64,000 nt of DNA from a virus, in the IMG/VR virus record IMGVR_UViG_3300049740_000832, one strand, 5' to 3'. Under the pieces are notes generated by a model. That model was not told the origin of the DNA. It worked only from the letters and a program-made list of their open reading frames with translations, and ran no database searches. Shown here in pieces: positions 3,027 through 54,089 of the stretch. The position numbers and the translations under genes are program-made. Position 1 is the first letter of the stretch, and every line of letters begins with the position of its first letter.

Positions 3027-3383
3027 ATGCAATTAACAAAAGATAATTTAATAGTATACGCTGCGAAGCACTATTATAATCCTAAATGTATCGACAGTGA
3101 GGAGTTTTTTGAGGACTTAAAAAGATTTAAGTATATCAAAAGACTTCTCAATCGATACAAAACTACAGGTGAGTTGTCTGAAAGACTCATCATTAATCAT
3201 CTCATAGTAATTTTCAACGTATTTGGTCATGAGGCAGGACTAGACATCCTCGAACTCAAGATTGAACTCGACCATTGGGAAACACTCAAACCATTTCTTA
3301 TCTTTCTCAAGGCAATCAAAAACGATATGTATACCAATATTGAAATGGATAAATTAGTCATTGAAAGACTTCGAAACATATAA
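3027..3383 (+). CDS. conserved T4-like hypothetical protein
   Basis: YYNP-C...EEFFEDLKRFKYIKRL...NHLIVIFNVFG, widely conserved in marine T4-like phages. Confidence 0.7.
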   Translation: MQLTKDNLIVYAAKHYYNPKCIDSEEFFEDLKRFKYIKRLLNRYKTTGELSERLIINHLIVIFNVFGHEAGLDILELKIELDHWETLKPFLIFLKAIKNDMYTNIEMDKLVIERLRNI

Positions 3384-3386
3384 ATA
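3379..3386 (+). promoter_or_regulatory. T4-type late promoter
   Basis: TATAAATA, 5 nt before ATG 3392. Confidence 0.75.
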
Positions 3387-3391
3387 GAACT

Positions 3392-3991
3392 ATGGGTATA
3401 TTAAAGTCAGCAGCAGACCTCGTTTATACGATTCGATTCCTGAAACTTCTCGTAACACCATTCGAGAAGATGGGTGCGTATAAGGCAGGCATCATCGATG
3501 CAGATGGTAAGAAGAATCCAGACTTCAACACTTTGAAGACTGATGACCGTGAGGCATATAGAACACACTATACTCCCTTCATCAGACTTGTTATCAATCT
3601 AAAAAGAATAATGGCAAAGGCGCCAGGCGGTCAATCTGTCATTGCACGTTATGGTGCAGCACTCGCACTCATACGAGAACATGGTGAATTATCAGATGAT
3701 AGAGTGATGCAAATTCACGAAGAAACGGGGATTGATATTCTAGATGTTCTGGTTGAGGACTCCCAGTGGTTTGTGATTGATAATAATGAACTATCGCCAG
3801 GCATATACCGAATGAGATACGATACACTAACTGTTCAATGTGAAGATGTCGTAAAGAAGGATGATAAGATTCGTGTTGTTGAGACCGATGCATCTCCGAT
3901 TGATGAAATTTTAGGTATCAACATATACAAGGGTATCCACGAAAACTCTAAACAGTGGGTATACTTTTCGACAGGGGAGATTACCCGATGA
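3392..3991 (+). CDS. conserved T4-like hypothetical late protein
   Basis: RFLKLLVTPF...AYKAGIIDADGK motif; late promoter. Confidence 0.65.
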   Translation: MGILKSAADLVYTIRFLKLLVTPFEKMGAYKAGIIDADGKKNPDFNTLKTDDREAYRTHYTPFIRLVINLKRIMAKAPGGQSVIARYGAALALIREHGELSDDRVMQIHEETGIDILDVLVEDSQWFVIDNNELSPGIYRMRYDTLTVQCEDVVKKDDKIRVVETDASPIDEILGINIYKGIHENSKQWVYFSTGEITR

Positions 3992-5332: not shown

Positions 5333-5408
5333 ACTATAATCTGAAAACTCGTCTGGGTATAGATATAACTATCCCCAAACAAAACCTTTGACTCTAAGGA
5401 CACCCTCA

Positions 5409-7394
5409 ATGCCCGTAAAGATTGACCGAAACAAAGATGACATCCTTGCAGAATACGCTGTCGGAATGTTAAAAGATTTCTACCTACTAGATTATGAAGA
5501 TTCACCACAGGAAGGTTTTGCAAGAGCAGCAAGGGCGTGGTCAAAATATAGAGAGGAAATAGATGATGCACTCGCACAACGTCTATATGATTATGTTAGT
5601 AATAAGCATTTTATGTTTGCTAGTCCAGTATTATCTAACGCTCCCAACGGAAAGAAAAAAGACAAAGGGATGCCTATCTCTTGTTTCCTCACATATGTCC
5701 CCGATACTCTTGAGGGTCTTATTAGCCATTCTAGTGAGCTTCGGTGGCTTTCTGTTTACGGTGGCGGTGTTGGCGGACATTGGTCTAGTGTGCGAACGGT
5801 CAGTGACATTGCGCCAGGGCCAATCCCATTTCTGCATACGGTAGATGCAGACATGATTGCTTACCGTCAGGGTAAGACACGCAAGGGTTCTTATGCCGCA
5901 TATATGGATATCTCACATCCTGACGTTGTAGAATTTATGAACATGAGAATTCCTACAGGTGATGTGCAAAGAAAGGCGTTGAACCTTCATAACGCTATAA
6001 ATATAACTGATGAGTTCATGGAGTGTGTCAGAGAAGACAAAGACTTTGACCTTCGTGACCCAAAGAATAGTGAAGTAAAAGAAACAGTTAATGCTCGTAA
6101 GTTGTGGGAACGTCTCCTTGAGATTCGTTTTCGAACAGGTGAACCTTATCTTAACTTCATAGATACGGCAAACAATGCGTTACCGCAACCGTTAAAAGAT
6201 AAAGGACTAAAGATTCACGGGTCAAACCTGTGTAATGAGATTCACCTACCAACCAGCGCAGACAGAACTGCGGTGTGTTGCCTGTCATCTCTGAATTTAG
6301 AATACTACGATGAATGGAAAGATACAACTATTGTGCGTGACCTTGTTAGGATGCTCGATAATGTCTTGCAATACTTTATCGACAACGCACCCGACACCAT
6401 TGCCAGAGCAAAATACAGTGCAGCAAGAGAACGGTCAATCGGACTTGGAGCAATGGGATTCCACAGTCTCCTCCAAAAACATGGAGTCGCATGGGAGTCC
6501 GAAGCCGCAAGAGAAATCAACCGAACCGTGTTTGACCACATTAAATCAGAAGCAGTTGCAGAAACTGAACTCCTTGCCCAAGAACGTGGTGAATATCCTG
6601 ATGGCGATGGGTCTGGAAGGCGCAACTCACACTTGCTTGCCATTGCGCCCAACGCAAGTTCAGGAATAATTCTATCAACAAGTCCTTCTATCGAACCGCT
6701 GAAGGCAAATGCATATACTCATCGAACTCGTGCGGGTTCATTCTTGGTAAAGAACAAATACCTCGAACAACTGCTTGATGAGAGAAGTGAGAACACCGAA
6801 TCCACTTGGACATCTATTATTACCAAGAAAGGTTCTGTTCAACATCTACCGTTCCTTACCGAAGGTGAGAAGGCAGTATTCAAGACCGCAGATGAACTTG
6901 ACCAGATGTGGGTGGTGCAACACTCCGCAGAACGTCAACAGTTTGTTTGTCAAGGTCAATCTGTGAACCTGTTCTTCCCGTCTGGTGCGGATAAGTCTTA
7001 TGTAAACAAGGTTCACTATAGTGCATGGGCGAAAGGATTGAAAGGTCTCTATTACCTACGCACCGAATCAAAACAACGGGCAGAGAACGTGTCTGAGAAG
7101 GTAGAACGTGTCGCACTACAAGGTGATATGCGTTCTATCGTCTATGGTAAGTCCGACTGTCCATTCTGTTCTATGGCAAAGGAAGAACTCCGCTTGAGGG
7201 GTATTCCTTTTGATTACATCGACCTGAAAGAGATAGGTAAGACCGCTCGTGAAGTGACAGGCCGAGATGTCAAAACAGTCCCACAGATTTATCTGGAAGG
7301 AGAATATGTGGGCGGATATGAAGAACTTATGGAATACCTAAACAAATCATTAGAAACACAAGAAGACGATGAATGTCGTGCTTGCGAGGGATAA
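5409..7394 (+). CDS. nrdA: class I ribonucleotide reductase alpha subunit with inserted glutaredoxin domain; no ATP cone
   Basis: FASPVLSN, ISCF, SNLCNEI, IAPNAS, GLYYLR motifs; CPFC...TVPQI...GGYEEL Grx domain; terminal CRAC. Confidence 0.95.
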   Translation: MPVKIDRNKDDILAEYAVGMLKDFYLLDYEDSPQEGFARAARAWSKYREEIDDALAQRLYDYVSNKHFMFASPVLSNAPNGKKKDKGMPISCFLTYVPDTLEGLISHSSELRWLSVYGGGVGGHWSSVRTVSDIAPGPIPFLHTVDADMIAYRQGKTRKGSYAAYMDISHPDVVEFMNMRIPTGDVQRKALNLHNAINITDEFMECVREDKDFDLRDPKNSEVKETVNARKLWERLLEIRFRTGEPYLNFIDTANNALPQPLKDKGLKIHGSNLCNEIHLPTSADRTAVCCLSSLNLEYYDEWKDTTIVRDLVRMLDNVLQYFIDNAPDTIARAKYSAARERSIGLGAMGFHSLLQKHGVAWESEAAREINRTVFDHIKSEAVAETELLAQERGEYPDGDGSGRRNSHLLAIAPNASSGIILSTSPSIEPLKANAYTHRTRAGSFLVKNKYLEQLLDERSENTESTWTSIITKKGSVQHLPFLTEGEKAVFKTADELDQMWVVQHSAERQQFVCQGQSVNLFFPSGADKSYVNKVHYSAWAKGLKGLYYLRTESKQRAENVSEKVERVALQGDMRSIVYGKSDCPFCSMAKEELRLRGIPFDYIDLKEIGKTAREVTGRDVKTVPQIYLEGEYVGGYEELMEYLNKSLETQEDDECRACEG

Positions 7395-7398
7395 AAAA

Positions 7399-8361
7399 AT
7401 GTCATTACTAGATTTTTCAAAAACATACCGGCCGTTCCTCTACCCGTGGGCAGTGGAACTATCAAAGAAACACGAAGAGATACACTGGATTGAAGACGAA
7501 GCAGAACTGTCCGAAGACGTTCAGGATTGGAAGACTAAACTGAGTGAACCAGAGAAGAACTTTATCACACAGGTTCTCCGTCTGTTTACACAATCAGATG
7601 TTCAAGTTGGTGAGAACTACCACGAACTTCTGATTCCAAAGTTCAAGAATAATGAAGTCCGTAATATGTTATCATCGTTTGCGGGTCGAGAAGCAGTTCA
7701 CCAACGTGCATATGCATTGTTGAATGATACTCTGGGTCTGCCTGATGAGGACTTCCATATGTTCCTCGAATACAAAGAGATGTCCGACAAGATTGACTTC
7801 ATGAAACAGGGTGACATCAACAGTCATACGGGTCTGGCATTGGCCCTCGCACAGTCTGTATTCAACGAAGGTCTGTCAGTGTTCGCATCGTTTGTGATGT
7901 TGTTGAACTTCCAACGGTATGGTAAGATGAAGGGTATGGGAACAATTGTTGAGTGGTCTATTCGTGACGAGACTCTGCATGTTCAGGGTAACGCGAAACT
8001 ATTCCGTGAGTTCTGTGAAGAACATCCGCGCATCGTGAACGATGAACTGAAATCTAAAATCTATCAGATGGCAAAAGATGTAGTCAAACTCGAAGACCGT
8101 TTCATCAAACTTGCTTTTGATGGTATGGAGATGGAAGGTCTGACCGAAGAGGATGTCAAACAATATATCCGTCACATCGCAGACCGTAGACTCCTACAAC
8201 TTGGTATGAAACCAAAGTTTGGTGTCAAGGATAATCCCCTACCGTGGTTAGACTGGGTATTAAATGGTGCATCGCATGACAACTTCTTCGAGAAACGTGT
8301 TACCGAATACTCTGTAAATGGTATGGAAGGTGACTGGGGTTGGGATGAAGTTGCAGCATAA
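7399..8361 (+). CDS. nrdB: class Ia ribonucleotide reductase beta subunit
   Basis: FTQSD, EAVHQRAY (radical Tyr), EG..FASF, IRDETLH, NFFEKRVTEY. Confidence 0.95.
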   Translation: MSLLDFSKTYRPFLYPWAVELSKKHEEIHWIEDEAELSEDVQDWKTKLSEPEKNFITQVLRLFTQSDVQVGENYHELLIPKFKNNEVRNMLSSFAGREAVHQRAYALLNDTLGLPDEDFHMFLEYKEMSDKIDFMKQGDINSHTGLALALAQSVFNEGLSVFASFVMLLNFQRYGKMKGMGTIVEWSIRDETLHVQGNAKLFREFCEEHPRIVNDELKSKIYQMAKDVVKLEDRFIKLAFDGMEMEGLTEEDVKQYIRHIADRRLLQLGMKPKFGVKDNPLPWLDWVLNGASHDNFFEKRVTEYSVNGMEGDWGWDEVAA

Positions 8362-8477
8362 TGGACGAATCGTATGAACTCGAATGTGAAGTTTGTGACC
8401 ATCGAACTGAAGTCCTAGTTTACGATAGCGAGGAAGAGCCCTCATTCTGCCCTATGTGCGGAACACCAATATCATAA
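8361..8477 (+). CDS. 38-aa zinc-ribbon/rubredoxin-like protein
   Basis: MDESYELECEVCDH...FCPMCGTPIS with two CxxC pairs; TAATG coupling to nrdB; below ORF-track cutoff. Confidence 0.7.
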   Translation: MDESYELECEVCDHRTEVLVYDSEEEPSFCPMCGTPIS

Positions 8478-8491
8478 CCATATATACATTC

Positions 8492-8896
8492 ATGTGGATG
8501 TATGAAAATAAAGTATTTGAACCAGTAGACGAATTCCTTGAAGAATATCAGGGGTTCGTCTACTGTATTACAAATCTACAGAACGGTAAAAAGTATATTG
8601 GTAAAAAGTTTTTCTGGAAACCCAAAGTGTTACCCAAGACAAAAACCAGAAAGAGAAAAGTGAGGACAAGAGTCCAGTCTGATTGGCAAAGTTACCACGG
8701 GTCTTCTGGCGCCGTTCTAGACCTATTAGAACAGGGTGTTTCCTTCAATCGAGAGATACTACGACTTTGTAAGACTAAAGGTGAATGTTCTTACTATGAG
8801 GCAAAACTGCAATTTGAAAATGACGTATTGTTAAATGATGACTACTACAATGAATTCATCGGGTGTAAAATACACTCAAGACATCTTAAATCGTGA
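8492..8896 (+). CDS. short GIY-YIG family protein
   Basis: GFVY...KKYIGKK...YHGSS...YYEAKLQ...YYN. Confidence 0.8.
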   Translation: MWMYENKVFEPVDEFLEEYQGFVYCITNLQNGKKYIGKKFFWKPKVLPKTKTRKRKVRTRVQSDWQSYHGSSGAVLDLLEQGVSFNREILRLCKTKGECSYYEAKLQFENDVLLNDDYYNEFIGCKIHSRHLKS

Positions 8897-12602: not shown

Positions 12603-12836
12603 ATGCCAACATATACAATGATGCATAAAGAGACTGAAGAAGAGAAAGATATCTTCTGTTCTTATGATGAGTCTCAAAAATTTCTTGAAGAAAACCCTGA
12701 TTGGTGTCGAGTAATCGGTGCGCCTGCACTGGTGACACAAACAGGCAATGTAATCAACAAAACATCAGGTGATTGGAAAAACTTGATGGAGAATGTCAAA
12801 AAAGGTTCGGGTAAAGGGAATACTATCAAGACATGA
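12603..12836 (+). CDS. FmdB-like small conserved protein (Cys pairs absent)
   Basis: MPTY...E...FLEENP; usual neighbour of phoH in marine T4-like phages. Confidence 0.55.
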   Translation: MPTYTMMHKETEEEKDIFCSYDESQKFLEENPDWCRVIGAPALVTQTGNVINKTSGDWKNLMENVKKGSGKGNTIKT

Positions 12837-13519
12837 CTATGAAACGTCTCAAGATAGACCACCTGTTAACCTACGAAGCAATCACACAAAATCAAAGAAT
12901 AGCATACGACTCGTGGGATGACAGAGACCATTTGGTTCTCTGTGGTTCGGCAGGAACGGGTAAGACCTTTATCGGAATGTATCTCGCACTCGCGGATGTT
13001 CTAGATAAATCGTATGAACAAGACAAACTTGTTATCGTAAGGAGCGTTGTTCCGACACGGGAGATGGGGTATCTGCCTGGCTCAATCGAGGAGAAGGTTG
13101 ATGCATATACCGCACCGTATCGGTCAATCGCAACCGAACTATTCAATGAGAAACTCGCATATGATATGCTTGAGACACAGGGTGCAATCTCGTTTATGTC
13201 CACTTCATTCATTCGGGGACAGACAATCGATGACGCAATCATTCTGGTTGATGAGATGCAGAACCTTACATACCACGAACTGGATAGTATTATCACTCGT
13301 GTGGGACGCAATACACGCATCATCTTCAGTGGAGACTACTATCAATCAGACCTAAATAAAGAGACTGACAAGAACGGTATTCTGGACTTTATGAACATCA
13401 TGGAAGTCATGAACAACTTTACAACCGTAGAATTCGGATGGGCAGATATTGTAAGGTCAGACTTTGTTCGAGACTATATCATGACCAAAGAAATGGTCGA
13501 AAGAGGAAAACTAAATTGA
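12833..13519 (+). CDS. phoH: PhoH-like ATPase
   Basis: GSAGTGKT, MGYLPG, FIRGQT, VDEMQN, TRVG, SGDYYQSDL, DIVRS. Confidence 0.95.
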   Translation: MTMKRLKIDHLLTYEAITQNQRIAYDSWDDRDHLVLCGSAGTGKTFIGMYLALADVLDKSYEQDKLVIVRSVVPTREMGYLPGSIEEKVDAYTAPYRSIATELFNEKLAYDMLETQGAISFMSTSFIRGQTIDDAIILVDEMQNLTYHELDSIITRVGRNTRIIFSGDYYQSDLNKETDKNGILDFMNIMEVMNNFTTVEFGWADIVRSDFVRDYIMTKEMVERGKLN

Positions 13520-15098: not shown

Positions 15099-15674
15099 AT
15101 GAAAAAATATCACAAAGTAGTTCTTACCGACATTGATGGTGTTGTCCTTAACTGGGGATATGCCTTTGATATCTGGATGCAAGAAAAGGGTTATGTTGTT
15201 AAAGACCCCGATTCCTATGATATAGGTAAGGTCTATGGACTTGAACCTTCTGAATCAAAAGAAATGGTTCGGTTGTTCAACGAAAGTGCTGCGATTGGTT
15301 TTCTACCACCTCTCCGCGATGCAATGCACTATATCAAGAAACTCCATGAAGAACATGGGTATGTCTTTCACGCAATCACAAGTTTGAGTAAAGACTTTAA
15401 CGCACAGAAACTTCGGACACAGAACCTTCAGAAGTTGTTTGGTGAAACTGTGTTTGAGAAGTTTATCTATCTTGATACTGGGGCTGACAAAGACCAAGAG
15501 TTAAGTCAGTATGAAGGTAAAGATTATGTCTGGGTTGAAGACAAGATTGAGAATGCCCAGTGTGGTGCAAGTTTTGGTCTTGACTCTATTCTCATGGAAC
15601 ACAGTTTCAACATGGATAATACAGAGTTTCCCCTGATGAAAAACTGGAAAGATATATACGAATATTTAACTTGA
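15099..15674 (+). CDS. HAD-superfamily nucleotidase, T4 gp30.2-like
   Basis: LTDIDGV, ITS, WVEDK motifs. Confidence 0.8.
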   Translation: MKKYHKVVLTDIDGVVLNWGYAFDIWMQEKGYVVKDPDSYDIGKVYGLEPSESKEMVRLFNESAAIGFLPPLRDAMHYIKKLHEEHGYVFHAITSLSKDFNAQKLRTQNLQKLFGETVFEKFIYLDTGADKDQELSQYEGKDYVWVEDKIENAQCGASFGLDSILMEHSFNMDNTEFPLMKNWKDIYEYLT

Positions 15675-15685
15675 TATATACTCCT

Positions 15686-17188
15686 ATGAGATATGTTGGT
15701 TATTCAGAATACTTTCACGATGCGGCATTGGCTATCGTCAATCCCGATGGTAAAGTCGCATATGCGTCACAATCAGAACGATATAGTAAAATAAAAAACG
15801 ATGAATTGATATTCCCTGAGATGTGGAATTTTGTCAATGATGATGACCACGTTACCTTTTATGAAGATATAAATTTGCGTAAAAAAATGATGGGCGGTTA
15901 TCGCACATTTGGTGCCCCTAAATTTAGGAATCAAAAAGAAGAACAAACAGCGCCAATTAGTAATTCATACCTGTATGATGATTTTAATCTACATCATGAA
16001 AGTCATTGTGCTCTCGCATTTTTCACTCGGCCGTGGCAATCAAAAGAAGACACAGTTTGTGTTTCAGTAGATGGTTCGGGTGAACTTGAATCGGTTGCAA
16101 TTCATGACCACAATCTAAAACCCATAAAAAAAGTTATGTGGCCACAATCTCTTGGAATGTTATATGGGACTGTGACTGGAGCAATAGGTTTGAAATCTCT
16201 TAGAGATGAATATATCGTCATGGGACTTTCTTCGTATGGTGAGGTTGACAAAAAACTTTACGACATATTATATAACGGTTATTATTGGTTTGAAAGTGAA
16301 CAGGGATTATACGAGAAAATGATTGTAGATTTTGAACAAACTTCAATCGCAGAAAGTTCCCTAAGCGCTAAATTTGTTGTATATGAAACAAGAATAAAAA
16401 ATAGGTGCAAGGAGATATCTATGGAGGATGCCGCTGCAACTGTTCAAAATTTCTTTGAGGTCGAAGTTCTTAAAATTATGAAGGAAGCAAGAAAGTATGG
16501 GTCTAAACTTGTCTATGGTGGTGGTTGTGCCCAAAATGTTATTGCAAACTCTATGATACGCGAACTCTTTGATGACATGCATATTGCAATCGCACCTAAT
16601 GATGCAGGCAATGCTCTAGGGTGTGCAGCATACACATGGCATAAAAACACGGGGGGAACACATCTAGACTGGTCTCCATATTTGGGTCATAATATTGACC
16701 GTGATATCAATCCAAAAGAAGTTGCAAAGTATCTCGTTGAAAATCGAGTCTGTGGTATTGCAAATGGTCGAGCAGAGTATGGCCCTCGTGCATTGGGTAA
16801 TCGGTCTCTGATTGCAGATGTTCGTTATGATGTCAAGGATACCGTTAATGAAATAAAAAAGAGACACAAGTTCAGACCTTTTGGCCCTGCAATTCTGTCA
16901 GAATTTCAAGACCACTATTTTGATGGTCATAAAAATGAATATATGCAGTATGCTGCAATTGCAAAACATCCTTATGACTCTGTAACACATATAGATAATA
17001 CTGCAAGGGTGCAAGTAGTAAAACCTGATTGCAAATCTGTTCTTAGACAGATATTAGAAGAATATTTTGAACTTACACAAGTCCCAATGTTACTAAATAC
17101 TTCTTTGAACATAAGAAATCAACCTATGGTAAATACCATTGAGGACGCTATAGAATGGGAAAAAAAATATAACGTAAGAGTATTCTAA
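15686..17188 (+). CDS. carbamoyltransferase (NodU/CmcH/TobZ family)
   Basis: HDAA, ERYSKIK, HHESH, DGSGE, GGCAQN, DAGNALG, EYGPRALGNRS, RPFGP, LLNTSLN. Confidence 0.93.
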   Translation: MRYVGYSEYFHDAALAIVNPDGKVAYASQSERYSKIKNDELIFPEMWNFVNDDDHVTFYEDINLRKKMMGGYRTFGAPKFRNQKEEQTAPISNSYLYDDFNLHHESHCALAFFTRPWQSKEDTVCVSVDGSGELESVAIHDHNLKPIKKVMWPQSLGMLYGTVTGAIGLKSLRDEYIVMGLSSYGEVDKKLYDILYNGYYWFESEQGLYEKMIVDFEQTSIAESSLSAKFVVYETRIKNRCKEISMEDAAATVQNFFEVEVLKIMKEARKYGSKLVYGGGCAQNVIANSMIRELFDDMHIAIAPNDAGNALGCAAYTWHKNTGGTHLDWSPYLGHNIDRDINPKEVAKYLVENRVCGIANGRAEYGPRALGNRSLIADVRYDVKDTVNEIKKRHKFRPFGPAILSEFQDHYFDGHKNEYMQYAAIAKHPYDSVTHIDNTARVQVVKPDCKSVLRQILEEYFELTQVPMLLNTSLNIRNQPMVNTIEDAIEWEKKYNVRVF

Positions 17189-37169: not shown

Positions 37170-37416
37170 TGTAAATCATGAGTCGATAAGGAAAAGTAAT
37201 CAGTATCAGAAGACATATACTTTTGATAATGGATATGGTGCGTCTGTGATTTGTAATCCTAGTTCGTATGGTAACACTGATGGACTTTTCGAAGTTGCAG
37301 TGCTTGACATTAATGGTGAACTGTGTTATGATACACCTATTACTGATGATGTGATTGGTCATTTGACCTTTCAAGAAGTTGTTGATACATTGAAAGAGAT
37401 TGAGAGTTTAACATGA
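37153..37416 (+). CDS. conserved phage hypothetical protein
   Basis: FDNGYGASVI...SYG...GLFEVAVL...YDTPITDDVIGHLT. Confidence 0.65.
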   Translation: MQSERNVNHESIRKSNQYQKTYTFDNGYGASVICNPSSYGNTDGLFEVAVLDINGELCYDTPITDDVIGHLTFQEVVDTLKEIESLT

Positions 37417-37952
37417 ATATTTTCCATCTGGACAATGACCCTATCAAGGCAGCACAGGCAATGTGCGACAAGCATATCGTCAAGATGATTGTCGAGTATG
37501 CACAACTGATGTCAACCGCACACCGTGTGCTTGATGGCGCCTTGTATATCGACAGGACTGCGAATGGTCGCAAAATCAAACGTTGGGCGCATCCTGATTA
37601 TCATGGTTTTCTCTACAAAGCATCTCATGTCAATCACCCGTCAAACATTTGGGTGCGTGAGTCTGACGAGAACTACTTCTGGTTGTATCGTCACTTCCGT
37701 GAGTGCTGCAAAGAGTATACCCGTAGGTATGGAAAATATCACTTGACAGATACTCGTTTATCTGATATACTACTCAACATACCTAAGAAAATCCCCAAAG
37801 CGGGATTGACGAAATTCGCACAAGCAATGCCTGACTATTGCAAACGCGAAGACCCTGTAGATGCATATCGTATCTACTATCTAAATGAGAAACGTTCATT
37901 TGCTAAATGGACAAATCGTGATGAACCTGATTGGTGGAAGGAGTGTGCATAA
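37413..37952 (+). CDS. denV: pyrimidine-dimer DNA glycosylase / endonuclease V-like protein
   Basis: MNIF.LD...CDKHIVKMIVEYAQLMSTAH, NHPSNIW, EYTRRYGK.H, QAMP, AYR.YY. Confidence 0.8.
   Translation: MNIFHLDNDPIKAAQAMCDKHIVKMIVEYAQLMSTAHRVLDGALYIDRTANGRKIKRWAHPDYHGFLYKASHVNHPSNIWVRESDENYFWLYRHFRECCKEYTRRYGKYHLTDTRLSDILLNIPKKIPKAGLTKFAQAMPDYCKREDPVDAYRIYYLNEKRSFAKWTNRDEPDWWKECA
37743..37771 (+). promoter_or_regulatory. intragenic sigma70-like promoter
   Basis: TTGACA-17-TATACT with extended -10 TG. Confidence 0.5.
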
Positions 37953-43390: not shown

Positions 43391-43983
43391 TAACCTTTAC
43401 CTATCATCTGTCTTGAATCGTAGAATACTTTTTGTGAGTTTGACTTACGGAAGTCTGCGGTTGGAAGAAAGGTTGCAATCTCCCATTCGGGTGCAGGGAC
43501 TTCTGCAAATTTACTCGAAACGTGTTTATTCAAGTAGTGTTTGAAACATGGTTTATAATATCTCAGCTTTGAAATACTTTGTAATTTACTATATGTTATT
43601 GCGAACTTTGCATCATCAGATGTCTTACTAGTCGCGGTTTCCATTAATGAGTCTAACATCTTTGCACGAAGAATTGGTGGGAGATAATGAAGGTTCAATC
43701 CATAGAATCCACCTTCCGCAGGCCCGACTACGACAACCAATGGAAATACATCATAATATGGTAGTTTGTCTTTGGTCTTCGGGTCATAGAAGAACATCTG
43801 CATCGAACCGACCACGCCACGTTGCGCTCTTCGTTTGAGCGGTTCTTCTTTCATCAACTCATTACGGTTGATTGAACGAAGATTCGATGCTTTCTTCCGA
43901 AACCAATCACGACTTTCTTTGGTGCGTGGCGTCACCCCAGCGCGGAATGCCTGTAGTTCCAGTCTGTTGAAGATATTACTCAT
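43390..43983 (-). CDS. 2: DNA end protector protein gp2
   Basis: FFYDPKTKDKLPYYDVFPL, GLNLHYLPP, CFKHYL..HV, W....LPTA.F. Confidence 0.92.
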   Translation of the reverse strand: MSNIFNRLELQAFRAGVTPRTKESRDWFRKKASNLRSINRNELMKEEPLKRRAQRGVVGSMQMFFYDPKTKDKLPYYDVFPLVVVVGPAEGGFYGLNLHYLPPILRAKMLDSLMETATSKTSDDAKFAITYSKLQSISKLRYYKPCFKHYLNKHVSSKFAEVPAPEWEIATFLPTADFRKSNSQKVFYDSRQMIGKG

Positions 43984-43988
43984 GTTTC

Positions 43989-43996
43989 TATTTATA
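43989..43996 (-). promoter_or_regulatory. T4-type late promoter (minus strand)
   Basis: TATAAATA 5 nt before the gene 2 ATG. Confidence 0.75.
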
Positions 43997-43997
43997 C

Positions 43998-44474
43998 TTA
44001 TTTTTTACGTTTTTGGAAAGGTTTTAATGGTTTTGTTGATTTGGGAATAAGACTCTTCAATGGTTCGTTCTTCTCCGTCCATATCTGGAAGTGCCAACCT
44101 CTATCTTTTGCGAACTCATTTGCTGCTTGCCATTTGTTCATGTTCTTGACATAAGTAAAACTTTCACTCAAAAACCTTTTTGTTCTCCTTGAACCTGTAG
44201 GGGGTTGAGTCTGTGCATCTGGTTTTATCTCAATCAGATAGGTCTTTCCATTGTCCATCTTGAGTTTTAGGTCTACAAAGTAACGATGCCACCTCTTATC
44301 GACTTCATATAAGTATTGTATTACAACTTCTTCGGATGACCATTCAACCACACTAGGATTATCATCACACCACTTGAATGCATGTTTCTCCCATAGGGAA
44401 CGGTAGACCACATTGGTGTGGTCACCTTTATATTTCGTTGGGTTTTTTACCCGATATCTACCAGAATATGCCAT
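43998..44474 (-). CDS. 4: head completion nuclease gp4
   Basis: MAYSGRY..KNP.KY.GD, YRSLWE, WSSEE, RYFVD, IEIKP, NKW.AA. Confidence 0.93.
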   Translation of the reverse strand: MAYSGRYRVKNPTKYKGDHTNVVYRSLWEKHAFKWCDDNPSVVEWSSEEVVIQYLYEVDKRWHRYFVDLKLKMDNGKTYLIEIKPDAQTQPPTGSRRTKRFLSESFTYVKNMNKWQAANEFAKDRGWHFQIWTEKNEPLKSLIPKSTKPLKPFQKRKK

Positions 44475-44481
44475 ATAAATA
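44474..44481 (+). promoter_or_regulatory. T4-type late promoter; left boundary of inserted cassette
   Basis: TATAAATA 5 nt before ATG 44487. Confidence 0.7.
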
Positions 44482-44486
44482 AAAAA

Positions 44487-45065
44487 ATGATTAGAGGAAT
44501 ATCTCAAACAGTTCTAGACAAGTATGGTGCGTATACAGATTCTCATAAGTTATATATGCCTTATATAGGAGAAGGTTTTACCCAAGAGAGAAACTTATCA
44601 GATGATACTAAAGTATGGCGACACAAGGCAGACAGAATACTACAATTATATGGAAGTAGTATATTCGATAGGGGTGGTGAAGAACTGATAATTGTTGAGG
44701 GTGAAATTGAAGTTCTCGTTGTTGCAGAAGCGTTTCTTAGAACAACCAATATGATTCCACCAATTGTAGGAACAACATGTCATAGTAATTTTCCTATTAT
44801 GATGTTAGAAGAATCACTAGATTATATTAAATCATTTGATAAAATCATTACTGCGTTTGATAATGACTTTACTGGATATAGGCAGACAAATTGGATTTTG
44901 GAAACTGTGGGTGATAAATCATTTACCTTTGATATAAAAAACTGTAATGATAATTATGAATTAATAGAGGAAATCGGATATGACCGATACGTTCATGAAT
45001 TTCGCAATCGAACAAAAAGAACTGGCCAAAAACAAAAGATATCAGGTTGGCGCATATCTCACTAA
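44487..45065 (+). CDS. stand-alone TOPRIM domain resembling the T7 gp4/Twinkle primase catalytic domain
   Basis: RGIS, LYG, IIVEGEIEVL, YIKSFDKIITAFDNDFTG; no Zn finger or helicase. Confidence 0.75.
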   Translation: MIRGISQTVLDKYGAYTDSHKLYMPYIGEGFTQERNLSDDTKVWRHKADRILQLYGSSIFDRGGEELIIVEGEIEVLVVAEAFLRTTNMIPPIVGTTCHSNFPIMMLEESLDYIKSFDKIITAFDNDFTGYRQTNWILETVGDKSFTFDIKNCNDNYELIEEIGYDRYVHEFRNRTKRTGQKQKISGWRISH

Positions 45066-45342
45066 TGGTGTCTCTTCACACAATACACACCTAACTGAAA
45101 GAGAACATCCTGATACGACACAACACGCAGAAGCTAGAATAATATCCGAATCAGCCAGATTAGGTATTGCGACACAGGGACATAAGATTTATATAACCCT
45201 TTCTCCGTGTGTGTCTTGTGCGAAATTGATAATTCAGTCAGGAATAACTCATGTCTATTATCAAGAGTTAGATAAGAAACAAGAATTTGCGTTAGAATTG
45301 TTGGAGTCTGCGGGTATATATTACGAAAAATCTTATAAATAG
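44980..45342 (+). CDS. dCMP-deaminase-family Zn deaminase (compact)
   Basis: FM.FA...VGAYL, HAE, TLSPCVSCAKLIIQSGI. Confidence 0.85.
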   Translation: MTDTFMNFAIEQKELAKNKRYQVGAYLTNGVSSHNTHLTEREHPDTTQHAEARIISESARLGIATQGHKIYITLSPCVSCAKLIIQSGITHVYYQELDKKQEFALELLESAGIYYEKSYK

Positions 45343-45364
45343 AAACAGTTATAACCTATTTATC
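45334..45364. promoter_or_regulatory. pair of oppositely oriented late promoters
   Basis: TATAAATA on + (45334-45341); GATAAATA on - (45357-45364). Confidence 0.65.
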
Positions 45365-45377
45365 GGAATCGTAGACA

Positions 45378-46331
45378 ATGACTCAAGGCGTAGATGAAGC
45401 AAGAAAAAGAGTAGATTTAGAGTATCCTCTAAACAATCCAGATGACTATAAGGGTAGACTTGTATTCACTGTTCTTGAAGAACCACAAACAGACCTCGGA
45501 AACTTAGCAGATACCGTCACGGAACTAGGTGAAGGTGCTTTGTCATTCTTGAGTCTATCAAAGGAAGAACAACAGAAAGCAGCGGATGAGGCATCTGGTA
45601 AACTGAAAAACTTTCCAATCACAGGGCCAGCACAACCACAATTAACAAATAGACAAGTATCAATTTATCTTCCTGTAGGACTTGCATTCCGTGATAATGT
45701 TGCGTATGATAACATGGACTTGGGCGGAATGGGTGCAGCTGCAGAGAGAGGTTTACAGAGCGGAACGGGTGCAATATCCGAAATGATTGATGCGGGTATG
45801 AAAACCTTATCTTCTGGTCTTACTGGTTCGGGTGGTTCGGATATGGCAAAACTAGGTGCAGTAAAACTTGCATCAAAGGGGCCAGACGAACTAGCTGGTG
45901 CATTTAAGTCTGCGGGTCGAGTTACCACAAATCCAAACACTCGTGTTCTATTCAAACAAGTGGGTCTGCGTGACTTTTCATTCACATTCAAATTCATTCC
46001 TACATCTGCAAAAGAAGCAGAGGAATGTAAAGAAATCGTAAAGTTCTTCCGAACTGAACTCTATCCTGAAGATATTACTCTTGATGTTGGCGCATCAAAA
46101 ATATCAGTTGGATATAAGTTCCCTAACAGATTTCAGATTGATGTTTTGTATGACGGTGACTTTGTTGCTAATAAAATCAAACCAGTCTATCTGCGTGATG
46201 TCACAACAAACTATAACACAACAGCGATGTCATTTCACGAGGATGGTAACTTTACCGATATTGAAATGACACTATCATTCCAAGAGTCAAGAACATTGAG
46301 TAGAACTGATGTAGAAGAAGGTGGATTCTAA
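45378..46331 (+). CDS. 48: baseplate tail tube cap gp48-like
   Basis: LEYPL, IYLP, NPNTRVLF..VGLRDFSFTFKF.P, YP, FPNRF, LSFQE. Confidence 0.85.
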   Translation: MTQGVDEARKRVDLEYPLNNPDDYKGRLVFTVLEEPQTDLGNLADTVTELGEGALSFLSLSKEEQQKAADEASGKLKNFPITGPAQPQLTNRQVSIYLPVGLAFRDNVAYDNMDLGGMGAAAERGLQSGTGAISEMIDAGMKTLSSGLTGSGGSDMAKLGAVKLASKGPDELAGAFKSAGRVTTNPNTRVLFKQVGLRDFSFTFKFIPTSAKEAEECKEIVKFFRTELYPEDITLDVGASKISVGYKFPNRFQIDVLYDGDFVANKIKPVYLRDVTTNYNTTAMSFHEDGNFTDIEMTLSFQESRTLSRTDVEEGGF

Positions 46332-53629: not shown

Positions 53630-53637
53630 TATAAATA
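53630..53637 (+). promoter_or_regulatory. T4-type late promoter
   Basis: TATAAATA 5 nt before ATG 53643. Confidence 0.75.
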
Positions 53638-53642
53638 GAATT

Positions 53643-54089
53643 ATGGCAAGAAGAGCATTCGCACAGGAAGATAATAATATCAACACTGCTTCGGTAACGA
53701 CTAGTAGAACGAAGCAGTATACAGATATTGACCTATCATTTACGGCAAAACCGTCCTCTGGAGAAATATTCAAGAAGACGGACGCAGCTGCTGTGAAGCA
53801 GTCAGTCAAAACGTTGGTGATGTGTAATAAATTGGAAAAACCATTTCGTCCTGATTTTGGAGGAGATGTCCGAGCACAACTCTTTGAACTGGCATATAAA
53901 GGTAAGGATGCACTCTTACGCGATAGAATTATTAATACTATTCAATTTTACGAACCTCGAGCAGAAGTTCTTGATTTGATAATAGATTTGCAGAGTGATT
54001 ATAATAGTTTAAGTGTAACACTAAAATTCAAAGTGGTGAATACTGAAGAACAAGTAGAATTCACTTCAACACTATCAAGGTTAAGATAA
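53643..54089 (+). CDS. 25: baseplate wedge protein gp25
   Basis: DIDLSF, AVKQSVK.LV, EKPF.PDFG, LFE, YEPR. Confidence 0.92.
   Translation: MARRAFAQEDNNINTASVTTSRTKQYTDIDLSFTAKPSSGEIFKKTDAAAVKQSVKTLVMCNKLEKPFRPDFGGDVRAQLFELAYKGKDALLRDRIINTIQFYEPRAEVLDLIIDLQSDYNSLSVTLKFKVVNTEEQVEFTSTLSRLR

What the first reader, a model, noticed from the sequence alone, without database searches (positions are those of the whole stretch)
44474..45364. TOPRIM + Zn-deaminase cassette inserted at the late promoter between gene 4 and gene 48, bounded by TATAAATA direct repeats
Seen: two non-structural genes sit inside the structural module, flanked by TATAAATA at 44474-44481 and 45334-45341. Removing one copy plus the 852 nt between them restores a compact junction: gene 4 start, TATAAATA, minus-strand GATAAATA, gene 48 start. 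The likely gene 4 promoter (45357-45364) is now about 880 nt from its ATG, so its transcript would be antisense to the cassette. Gene 1 closely follows the T7 gp4 primase catalytic domain but has EGEIE in place of EGEID and no Zn finger or helicase. Gene 2 is a trimmed HAE/PCxxC deaminase. Established: TOPRIM domains (OLD, GajA, AriB) and dCTP/dCMP deaminases (AvcD/Dcd) are recurring anti-phage effectors. Inference: a late-expressed two-gene module acquired by recombination at the promoter, possibly an undescribed phage-versus-phage or nucleotide-pool interference system. Late timing is odd for housekeeping dNTP supply.
Basis: partly seen in the sequence, partly recalled or inferred. Interest (0 to 1): 0.8.

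Follow-up and report, generated by a model that had tools for sequence, protein, structure and literature searches.

The report
Mobile primase-core plus deaminase phage cassette
A marine T4-like phage carries, wedged into the promoter spacer between two virion genes, a horizontally traded pair of overlapping genes, a zinc-finger-less T7-type primase core and a minimal dCMP deaminase; most relatives lack the pair and its joint function is not yet known.

Summary
TATAAATA sits at 44474-44481 and 45334-45341. Between the two copies lie a 192-aa TOPRIM ORF (44487-45065) and a 120-aa HAE/PCxxC deaminase ORF (44980-45342).

The cassette is accessory and mobile:
- It occupies this site in three non-monophyletic lineages.
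- It is about 95-100% identical in DNA between two phages whose flanks are 40-80% identical.
- It occurs in two other gene contexts.

Both genes are under purifying selection and keep their catalytic residues.

The genes overlap out of frame by 86-125 nt in every lineage. The left promoter has the TATAAATA-N5-ATG (leaderless) format that this clade also uses for gp2 and gp25.

The defence-system analogy is not supported. The TOPRIM protein is a T7 gp4 primase RNA-polymerase domain, not OLD/GajA-like, and has no PADLOC hit. The deaminase is a small viral dCMP deaminase whose nearest non-cassette relative follows nrdAB.

My best reading (about 0.45) is a late-expressed pyrimidine-deoxynucleotide and replication accessory pair that spreads by recombination at conserved flanks. 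A replisome-directed editing or conflict role is not excluded. The scan has noted this pair only on this genome.

The parts
43998..44474 (-). gp4 head-completion gene, left flank. Its first ~40 nt travel with the cassette in the exchange with L001.
   Evidence: phrog_218 7e-56 and PF08722. Identity to L001 jumps from ~75% to ~98% at about 44434.
44474..44481 (+). Left late promoter TATAAATA. It overlaps the gp4 start codon, and 5 nt separate it from the TOPRIM ATG (leaderless format).
   Evidence: The same N5-ATG format is found at gp2, the gp25-like gene and ORF 3392 in this window and at gp2 in 18 relatives.
44487..45065 (+). TOPRIM gene: the T7 gp4-type primase RNA-polymerase domain (192 aa) without Zn finger or helicase.
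   Evidence: phrog_239 1.5e-17. PDB profile hit to 1nui residues 84-240, E 1e-8. AF2 pLDDT 90 and Foldseek 1nui TM 0.73. dN/dS 0.2-0.56.
44967..44971 (+). GAGGA Shine-Dalgarno-like element, 8 nt before the deaminase ATG, inside the conserved ELIEEIGY codons of the TOPRIM gene.
   Evidence: Read from the sequence. The ATG position is conserved in L001, L003 and L008.
44980..45065 (+). Dual-coding overlap of 86 nt. The TOPRIM C-terminal helix and basic tail are in frame 0; the deaminase N-terminal helix is in frame +1.
   Evidence: The overlap is 86 nt in L001 and L003 and 125 nt in L008 and L063.
44980..45342 (+). Minimal dCMP-deaminase-family gene (120 aa) with HAE and PCxxC intact.
   Evidence: PF00383 55 bits, phrog_174 9e-23. 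PDB hits to dCMP deaminases of S. mutans, T4 and S-TIM5. The Atlas model aligns over all 120 residues with ComEB at TM 0.90. dN/dS 0.03-0.2.
45334..45341 (+). Right late promoter TATAAATA, the ancestral gp48 promoter. It also encodes the last codons and, with G45342, the stop of the deaminase. It marks the right edge of the exchanged block.
   Evidence: It is homologous to the single + strand TATAAATA of the empty sites.
45357..45364 (-). GATAAATA on the minus strand, the ancestral gp4 late promoter, now ~880 nt from the gp4 ATG.
   Evidence: It is positionally homologous to T/A/G-ATAAATA in about 40 empty-site relatives. It is retained in L013 and L003 and degenerate in L001.
45378..46331 (+). 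gp48 baseplate tail-tube cap gene, right flank.
   Evidence: phrog_230 1.3e-33. It is 45% identical to L001 although the cassette is 93-97% identical.

Best explanation
This is an accessory two-gene late operon that marine T4-like myoviruses trade among themselves.

Shown:
- It sits in the ~65-nt divergent late-promoter spacer between gp4 and gp48.
- It is absent from most relatives and was recently moved between divergent phages.
- It encodes two selected, apparently catalytically intact proteins in an out-of-frame overlap.

Inferred expression: gp55/gp33-type late transcription from the left TATAAATA starts at, or next to, the A of the TOPRIM ATG, giving a leaderless mRNA as for gp2 and gp25 in this clade. 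The deaminase is translated from its own GAGGA-N8-ATG inside the last 86 nt of the TOPRIM gene. This arrangement keeps the pair together as a unit.

Inferred function: the deaminase is a stripped-down viral dCMP deaminase that makes dUMP (leading to dTTP) for a 37% G+C genome, in a lineage that otherwise has no such enzyme. It has lost part of the loop before the HAE motif; I suspect, from recalled dCMP deaminase structures and without testing, that this removes allosteric control. The primase core keeps the acidic residues that align with T7 gp4 E157, D207, D209 and D237 and the Lys that aligns with K122, all recalled as catalytic in T7. It lacks template recognition, so it acts as the deaminase's Mg2+/(d)NTP- or ssDNA-binding partner. 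It may feed the deaminase (for example by (d)CTP pyrophosphorolysis), regulate it, or tether it at the fork. It is not a stand-alone primase.

Spread is by recombination in co-infections, using the conserved gp4 5' end and the late-promoter motif as crossover points.
For: Empty sites are found in about 40 relatives and in the complete phage C48C1.

DNA identity between the window and L001 is 95-100% from about 44434 to 45346, against 65-85% in gp4 and 20-68% in gp48. Cassette carriers are not monophyletic on either flank tree.

The pair also occurs after a 164-aa ORF (L008, L063) and after tRNA-Thr (L064). dN/dS is below 1 for both genes.

The TOPRIM protein matches the T7 gp4 RNA-polymerase domain by profile and by fold. 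In the cassette family K42, E71, E73, D125, D127 and D155 are invariant; across 40 gp4-like sequences E71, D125 and D127 are invariant and K42, E73 and D155 nearly so.

The deaminase fold matches ComEB at TM 0.90 over all residues, and all 30 nearest Atlas clusters are small viral dCMP deaminases. Its nearest non-cassette homolog follows nrdA-nrdB.

C48C1 has its own gp61-type primase, gp41 and gp55 but no PF00383 gene. The near-identical 48-kb record G001 has no second deaminase.

TATAAATA-N5-ATG is shared with gp2, gp25 and ORF 3392. A gp33 homolog is present in the window.

T7 primase without its zinc-binding domain makes only random diribonucleotides at a very low rate, and the RNA-polymerase domain alone does not bind template stably (PMC2910064).
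Against: No experiment or expression data exist. No precedent was found, in my recall or in one literature search, for a primase RNA-polymerase domain acting as a hydrolase or as a regulatory subunit of a deaminase. Late timing is unusual for dNTP-supply genes; T4 cd is an early gene (from memory). Phage dCMP-deaminase-family enzymes can also deaminate ssDNA (bioRxiv 10.1101/2024.12.05.627091), so a mononucleotide substrate is not proven. The rest of this phage's genome is not held, so a second cd or a thymidylate synthase could not be checked. The tight pairing could equally point to a nucleic-acid-directed activity.
Confidence: 0.45

Rival explanations
1. Replisome- or nucleic-acid-directed editing or conflict module. 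The primase core binds ssDNA, RNA primers or a replisome (its own or that of a co-infecting T7-like podophage whose gp4 it resembles). It brings the deaminase to cytosines in polynucleotides, mutating or poisoning a competitor's or the host's DNA late in infection.
For: The obligate coupling of a template-cleft protein with a cytosine deaminase. The TOPRIM protein derives from T7-type gp4, not from the phage's own gp61-type primase. dCMP-deaminase-family phage enzymes can act on ssDNA. The loop before HAE is shortened to about the length recalled for TadA, and TadA structures are the PDB hits that align across that N-terminal region (query residues 5-102), whereas the dCMP deaminase hits start at residue 28-47. 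The patchy, horizontally spreading distribution is typical of conflict genes.
Against: There is no homology to any known defence or anti-defence model. The deaminase's nearest relatives and its fold are ordinary mononucleotide dCMP deaminases. No self-protection mechanism is evident. The T7 RNA-polymerase domain alone binds DNA poorly.
Confidence: 0.2
2. Two independent morons that merely travel together. The TOPRIM protein would be an auxiliary or degenerate primase used in late recombination-dependent replication, and the deaminase an unrelated dCMP deaminase auxiliary gene. The overlap would be only genome compaction.
For: Each protein has a plausible stand-alone role. Stand-alone ~170-193-aa viral Toprim clusters exist in the ESM Atlas, and small viral dCMP deaminases are common.
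Against: In every lineage and all three genomic contexts the two genes are adjacent, in the same order and with the same overlapping junction. No cassette-type TOPRIM or cassette-type deaminase was found alone among 1.84 billion representatives or 5.8 billion clusters. A primase without its zinc-binding domain is nearly inactive.
Confidence: 0.15
3. Selfish homing-type element. The TOPRIM protein would be a Mg2+-dependent site-specific nuclease that cuts empty gp4|gp48 sites in co-infecting relatives and drives gene conversion, with the deaminase as cargo.
For: The same insertion site in non-sister lineages, a sharp high-identity block with a ~40-nt co-conversion-like tract into gp4, and a patchy distribution. 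TOPRIM nucleases exist (OLD, RNase M5; from memory). The genome does host a SegE-like GIY-YIG gene elsewhere.
Against: The fold and the motifs are those of a primase, including the N-terminal subdomain and the Lys that aligns with T7 K122. There is no DNA-recognition domain. The deaminase is the more strongly conserved partner. Ordinary homologous recombination at conserved flanks explains the pattern.
Confidence: 0.08
4. Decaying, non-functional fragments of a primase-helicase and a deaminase.
For: Both are shorter than their relatives. One Logan contig (L064) has a truncated TOPRIM ORF and a frameshifted deaminase.
Against: The ORFs are intact in four lineages down to 49-57% identity, with dN/dS 0.03-0.56 and all catalytic motifs invariant. 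The fold prediction is confident.
Confidence: 0.02

Closest known systems
Bacteriophage T7 gp4 primase RNA-polymerase domain (PDB 1NUI, residues ~71-245), and the ZBD-less 56-kDa gp4 form
   Same: Same two-subdomain fold (TM 0.73). The residues that align with T7 K122, E157, D207, D209 and D237 are invariant in the cassette family, and it keeps the KDxNE-like motif and the following helix.
   Different: It has no Cys4 zinc-binding domain and no helicase. EGEIE replaces EGEID in all family members. It is a 192-aa stand-alone protein in a T4-like phage group whose complete relative C48C1 has its own gp61/gp41. It ends in a short basic tail that is dual-coded with the next gene.
Small phage dCMP deaminases (T4 cd 1VQ2; cyanophage S-TIM5 dCD 4P9C, 138 aa; marine-phage nrdAB-linked cd P0155, 139 aa)
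   Same: HAE and PCxxCAKxIxQSGI motifs, the C-terminal helix-strand ending, and the overall fold.
   Different: It is 17-19 aa shorter between strand 1 and HAE. It is not next to RNR or thymidylate synthase. It sits under a late promoter inside the virion-gene block and is always overlapped by a TOPRIM gene.
PeSL 'mobile regulatory cassettes' of T4-type phages (Arbiol et al. 2010, PMC2839356; Comeau et al. 2014, PMC4122927)
   Same: Non-essential genes bracketed by repeated promoter motifs, with insertion, deletion and replacement between close relatives through recombination at those motifs.
   Different: PeSLs are sigma70-like early promoters plus terminator stem-loops in hyperplastic regions. 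Here the repeats are bare 8-nt late promoters inside the structural module. Only the right boundary coincides with the motif, and no mini-circle evidence exists.
TOPRIM and deaminase anti-phage effectors (OLD, GajA, AriB; AvcD dCTP deaminase)
   Same: They share only the generic TOPRIM acidic motifs and the ~50-residue zinc-deaminase core.
   Different: There is no ABC-ATPase or P-loop kinase domain. The TOPRIM protein has no PADLOC hit. The deaminase scores 48.9 bits against a cut-off of 400 for NF041025. The fold neighbours are primases. The genes are encoded by a phage rather than a host island.

Membership tests
T7 gp4 / DnaG-type primase | TOPRIM fold with EGxxD, DxD and (K)DxxE acidic motifs | tested here: met
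   E71-G-E-I-E75, D125-x-D127 and D155-N-Y-E158 are aligned to T7 E157/D161, D207/D209 and D237. The single Asp-to-Glu change at the D161 position is invariant in the cassette family.
T7 gp4 / DnaG-type primase | N-terminal subdomain of the RNA-polymerase domain, with the Lys recalled as essential in T7 (K122) | tested here: met
   K42 is invariant and aligns with K122. The model covers both subdomains (pLDDT 90, TM 0.73 to 1nui).
T7 gp4 / DnaG-type primase | Cys4 zinc-binding domain for template recognition | tested here: not met
   The ORF starts at M-I-R-G-I-S, aligned to T7 residue 84. Only 12 nt separate it from the divergent gp4 start.
T7 gp4 / DnaG-type primase | Linked or partner DnaB-type helicase domain | tested here: not met
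   The ORF ends ~30 residues after the TOPRIM fold, and the next gene is the deaminase.
T7 gp4 / DnaG-type primase | Template-directed oligoribonucleotide synthesis | not testable with these tools
   Needs an enzyme assay. ZBD-less T7 primase makes only random dinucleotides, at a very low rate (PMC2910064).
dCMP deaminase (PF00383 / ComEB type) | H-A-E and P-C-x-x-C zinc and catalytic motifs; Pfam score over the gathering threshold | tested here: met
   55.1 bits against a cut-off of 25. H49, A50, E51, P76, C77 and C80 are invariant.
dCMP deaminase (PF00383 / ComEB type) | Full-length equivalog match (TIGR02571 ComEB) | tested here: not met
   63.6 bits against a cut-off of 219. About 17-19 residues are missing before HAE.
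dCMP deaminase (PF00383 / ComEB type) | dCMP-to-dUMP activity with dCTP/dTTP allostery | not testable with these tools
   Needs an assay. The fold matches ComEB at TM 0.90.
OLD / GajA / AriB TOPRIM nucleases | Match to family HMMs, an ATPase partner domain and an OLD-type TOPRIM fold | tested here: not met
   No PADLOC family at E<=0.1. All 41 PDB fold hits at E<=0.001 that are listed are primases or Twinkle, and no OLD or Gabija chain is listed.
AvcD-type anti-phage dCTP deaminase | N-terminal P-loop NTPase/kinase-like domain plus deaminase; NF041025 cut-off | tested here: not met
   The protein has only 120 aa. It scores 48.9 bits against 400, and the match covers only residues 49-96.
PeSL mobile regulatory cassette | Sigma70-like early promoter plus terminator stem-loop flanking the cargo | tested here: not met
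   Only TATAAATA late motifs flank the cargo. The sigma70-like matches are at shuffle level, 9 against 6.6. No flanking stem-loops were found.
Free-standing homing endonuclease gene | GIY-YIG, HNH or LAGLIDADG nuclease domain | tested here: not met
   Pfam, PHROGs and NCBIfam give only Toprim/primase and deaminase hits.

The most novel reading that the evidence does not exclude
The two proteins form one enzyme in which a zinc-finger-less primase core replaces the usual targeting or regulatory parts of a cytosine deaminase. The complex would be a phage-encoded, replication-fork-directed cytosine editor or poison. It could act on ssDNA or RNA primers of the phage's own late replication, or on a co-infecting T7-like competitor whose gp4 it mimics. 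The obligate out-of-frame overlap would enforce co-inheritance.
Probability: 0.12. Interest if true: 0.85.

Novelty: new variant of a known kind. Interest (0 to 1): 0.55.

Why it matters
The locus is a clean natural example of site-specific gain, loss and lateral exchange of cargo inside the most conserved (virion) module of T4-like phages, with empty sites, occupied sites and a recent transfer all available for comparison.

It defines a small, previously unannotated protein-pair family. Gene callers skipped the overlapped deaminase in all relatives but one set of short contigs. The family couples a primase catalytic core to a dCMP-deaminase fold, a combination not found in one full-text search of the held literature or in the PADLOC defence models.

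If the pair works as one enzyme, it would either show a new way to regulate or feed a nucleotide deaminase, or reveal a replisome-targeted editor. Minimal phage deaminases of this family are already being mined as sequencing tools (10.1101/2024.12.05.627091).

The TATAAATA-N5-ATG format suggests leaderless late mRNAs in an abundant marine phage clade. Late promoters could not be predicted in the related pelagimyophages (PMC7029224).

Tried and rejected
1. Programmed frameshift fusing TOPRIM to the deaminase. The deaminase frame is +1 relative to TOPRIM. The only A-run in the overlap (ACAAAAAGA in the window) is not conserved in L008, whereas an SD-like GAGGA-N8-ATG is. I rejected this as the main reading, by inspection.

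2. OLD/Gabija/PARIS-like nuclease. No PADLOC hit and primase-only fold neighbours.

3. Faster evolution of the cassette than its flanks between the window and its near-twin L013. The cassette differs at 2.2% of sites and the surrounding 7 kb at 4.1%, so there is no such signal.

4. A longer direct repeat at the borders. Only the 8-mer, plus 3 of the next 4 nt, is shared. An 11-nt repeat (44506/45343) is at chance level by my estimate.

5. A structured RNA in the region. There is no Rfam match at E<=0.1.

6. L056 (27% TOPRIM hit) is an ordinary 535-aa gp4-type primase-helicase of a T7-like phage.

7. Longer contigs for the L008-type context, and contexts of short primase-only relatives (P0010, P0025). 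Only contigs of 1-2 kb exist, which are uninformative.

8. The first AF2 run with 4 sequences failed (pLDDT 37). It was repeated with 44 sequences.

9. Names for the nearest gp4-like proteins. None are on record.

10. The window's own assembly is not held, so a genome-wide search for td/thyX, a second cd or gp61 could not be done.
Full report
**What is there**

The window is part of a marine T4-like myovirus. Recognisable genes include:
- gp26-like hub, tail-tube-like, gp2, gp4, gp48, gp53, gp6-like and gp5-like virion genes;
- gp32 and a gp33 homolog;
- nrdA and nrdB.

On the minus strand gp4 runs 43998-44474. On the plus strand gp48 runs 45378-46331. Two plus-strand ORFs lie between them: a 192-aa ORF at 44487-45065 and a 120-aa ORF at 44980-45342.

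TATAAATA is at 44474-44481 and 45334-45341. The window holds 15 copies against 3.8 expected by shuffling. The minus strand reads GATAAATA at 45357-45364. Every coordinate in the finding is correct.

**The two proteins**

*ORF1.* It scores weakly on Pfam Toprim models but 1.5e-17 on the PHROG primase/helicase family.
- A 4-sequence profile hits only T7 gp4 in the PDB, residues 84-240, E 1e-8.
- With a 44-sequence alignment AlphaFold gives pLDDT 90. Foldseek ranks T7 primase first (1nui, TM 0.73), followed by DnaG and Twinkle. Viral models give only primase/helicases.
- The residues that align with T7 K122, E157, D207, D209 and D237 are invariant in the cassette family, and the D161 position is Glu in all of its members.
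- There is no zinc finger: the ORF begins at the RGIS motif, 12 nt from the gp4 start. There is no helicase.
- No PADLOC defence model matches.

*ORF2.* It matches PF00383 (55 bits) and the PHROG dCMP deaminase family.
- PDB relatives are the dCMP deaminases of S. mutans, T4 and cyanophage S-TIM5, and TadA.
- The ESM Atlas model aligns over all 120 residues with ComEB at TM 0.90, and the 30 nearest clusters are small viral dCMP deaminases.
- It lacks about 17-19 residues before HAE compared with its nearest non-cassette relative, P0155 (36% identity). That gene lies directly after nrdA-nrdB in a marine phage.

*The overlap.* The two ORFs overlap by 86 nt in different frames, with a GAGGA 8 nt before the deaminase ATG. 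The overlap is conserved: 86 nt in L001 and L003, 125 nt in L008 and L063. AlphaFold places a confident TOPRIM helix at residues 165-175 inside the overlap, so part of the overlap is genuinely dual-coding.

**Is it an insertion?**

A scan with gp48 returned 42 viral loci. tblastn with gp2, gp4, TOPRIM, deaminase, gp48 and gp53 shows that about 40 of them have gp4 and gp48 back to back with no cassette.

Their spacers, 65-172 nt measured to the aligned part of gp48, all read the same way: CAT(gp4), about 8 nt, TATAAATA(+), 13-20 nt, T/A/G-ATAAATA on the minus strand, about 10 nt, ATG(gp48). The nearest deposited complete phage, C48C1, also has an empty 55-nt site.

In the window the right end of the cassette carries the whole ancestral spacer: TATAAATA, 15 nt, the minus-strand GATAAATA, 13 nt, then the ATG. 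The left end has a second TATAAATA fused to the gp4 start codon.

No other cargo was seen at this junction. The neighbouring gp2|gp4 junction does carry other cargo in relatives: a 564-aa radical-SAM-like gene, a 216-aa gene and a sulfotransferase-like gene.

**Is it mobile?**

The cassette sits at this site in the window and its near-twin (L012/L013, IMG/VR record G001), in a TARA scaffold (L001), and in a third lineage (L002-L007).

| Comparison with the window | TOPRIM | Deaminase | gp4 | gp2 | gp53 | gp48 |
|---|---|---|---|---|---|---|
| L001 (amino-acid identity) | 93% | 97% | 79% | 77% | 65% | 45% |
| L002/L003 (amino-acid identity) | 59% | 76% | 82% | 87% | 73-75% | 74-77% |

L001 therefore has the closer cassette and the more distant flanks, while L002/L003 show the reverse.

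At the DNA level, identity to L001 rises from about 75% to 95-100% at about 44434, inside gp4. It collapses to about 40% right after the right TATAAATA, at about 45346.

On trees of gp2+gp4 and of gp48+gp53 the carriers are not monophyletic, and empty-site genomes are nested among them.

The pair also occurs in two other contexts:
- after an unrelated 164-aa ORF, with an ATGA start overlap and no late-promoter motifs (L008-L011, L063);
- after a tRNA-Thr in L064, where both ORFs are broken. That could be decay or assembly error.

Both genes are under purifying selection: dN/dS is 0.2-0.56 for TOPRIM and 0.03-0.2 for the deaminase.

The family is rare. Only two clusters score below E 1e-30 among 1.84 billion representatives, and everything else is gp4-like primase-helicase. 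Four clusters were found in the 5.8-billion-protein set, and three loci in the metagenome scan. Gene callers missed the overlapped deaminase in most relatives.

**Expression**

The left TATAAATA is followed by exactly 5 nt and then the TOPRIM ATG. The same format precedes gp2 (43996, minus strand), a gp25-like baseplate gene (53630) and ORF 3392. That is 4 of 15 sites against 0.27 expected, P about 1e-4. The format is invariant at gp2 in 18 relatives.

From memory, T4 late transcripts start about 6 nt after the motif. If so, these would be leaderless mRNAs, and the cassette uses the clade's normal late-gene format. A gp33 homolog is in the window, and a gp55 gene is annotated in C48C1.

The ancestral gp4 promoter now lies about 880 nt from gp4, so its transcript would be antisense to the whole cassette. 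It is degenerate in L001. How gp4 is expressed in carriers is unexplained.

**What it does**

Nothing here is experimental.

The deaminase looks like a bona fide, stripped-down mononucleotide dCMP deaminase. The lineage otherwise lacks one: C48C1 has no PF00383 match, and G001 has none besides the cassette copy. In the window the slot after nrdB holds a SegE-like endonuclease instead.

C48C1 has its own gp61-type primase and gp41. T7 primase without its zinc-binding domain makes only random dinucleotides slowly, and the RNA-polymerase domain alone does not bind template stably (PMC2910064). A stand-alone priming role for the TOPRIM protein is therefore unlikely.

The invariable coupling points to joint action. 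My preferred reading (0.45) is a late pyrimidine-deoxynucleotide and replication accessory pair in which the primase core feeds, regulates or tethers the deaminase.

The rivals are:
- a nucleic-acid- or replisome-directed editor or conflict module (0.2), kept alive by the report that phage dCMP-deaminase-family enzymes deaminate ssDNA (10.1101/2024.12.05.627091);
- two unrelated morons travelling together (0.15);
- a homing-type element with a TOPRIM nuclease (0.08);
- decaying remnants (0.02).

**Comparison with known systems and novelty**

The parts belong to known families: the T7 gp4 RNA-polymerase domain and the small viral dCMP deaminases. The mode of spread resembles the promoter-flanked modular shuffling described for PeSLs (PMC2839356), but with bare late promoters inside the structural module.

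The pair itself, its obligate overlap and its placement were not found in the literature searched or in the defence-system models. Earlier notes of this scan record it only on this same genome.

I class it as a new variant of a known kind: a phage accessory cassette. Interest is moderate, and would be higher if the two proteins prove to act as one enzyme.

Noticed in passing
window 3379-3394, 43981-43996 (minus), 44474-44489, 53630-53645: Four late genes (ORF 3392, gp2, the TOPRIM gene and a gp25-like gene) have TATAAATA followed by exactly 5 nt and then ATG. This format predicts leaderless late mRNAs. It is 4 of 15 sites against 0.27 expected, and it is invariant at gp2 in 18 related marine phages.
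   Followed up: partly
window 8456-8896: A SegE-like GIY-YIG homing-endonuclease ORF (PF19835, 1.9e-34) sits directly after nrdA (5388-7394) and nrdB (7369-8361). This is the slot where a related marine phage (L067) has its dCMP deaminase.
   Followed up: no
L014 1176-2870; L022 2312-2962; L041 1264-1860: The neighbouring gp2|gp4 junction is a second cargo hotspot in relatives. It carries a 564-aa radical-SAM-like protein, a 216-aa protein or a 198-aa sulfotransferase-like protein, all co-oriented with gp4 and gp2.
   Followed up: no
window 43998-44474 and 45357-45364: In cassette carriers gp4 has lost its nearby promoter and the AAGG Shine-Dalgarno-like element seen in empty-site relatives. 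The predicted gp4 mRNA would be an ~880-nt antisense transcript of the cassette, and in L001 the promoter is degenerate.
   Followed up: partly
L064 705-1691: A third context for the pair: tRNA-Thr(TGT) lies immediately upstream, the TOPRIM ORF is cut at 117 aa and the deaminase is split by a frameshift. This is either a decaying copy or errors in a Logan assembly.
   Followed up: no
window 37413-37952; 12833-13519; 15671-17188: A DenV-like pyrimidine-dimer glycosylase, PhoH and a NodU/Nol-type carbamoyltransferase are present. This auxiliary gene content resembles that of pelagimyophage and cyanomyophage genomes.
   Followed up: no
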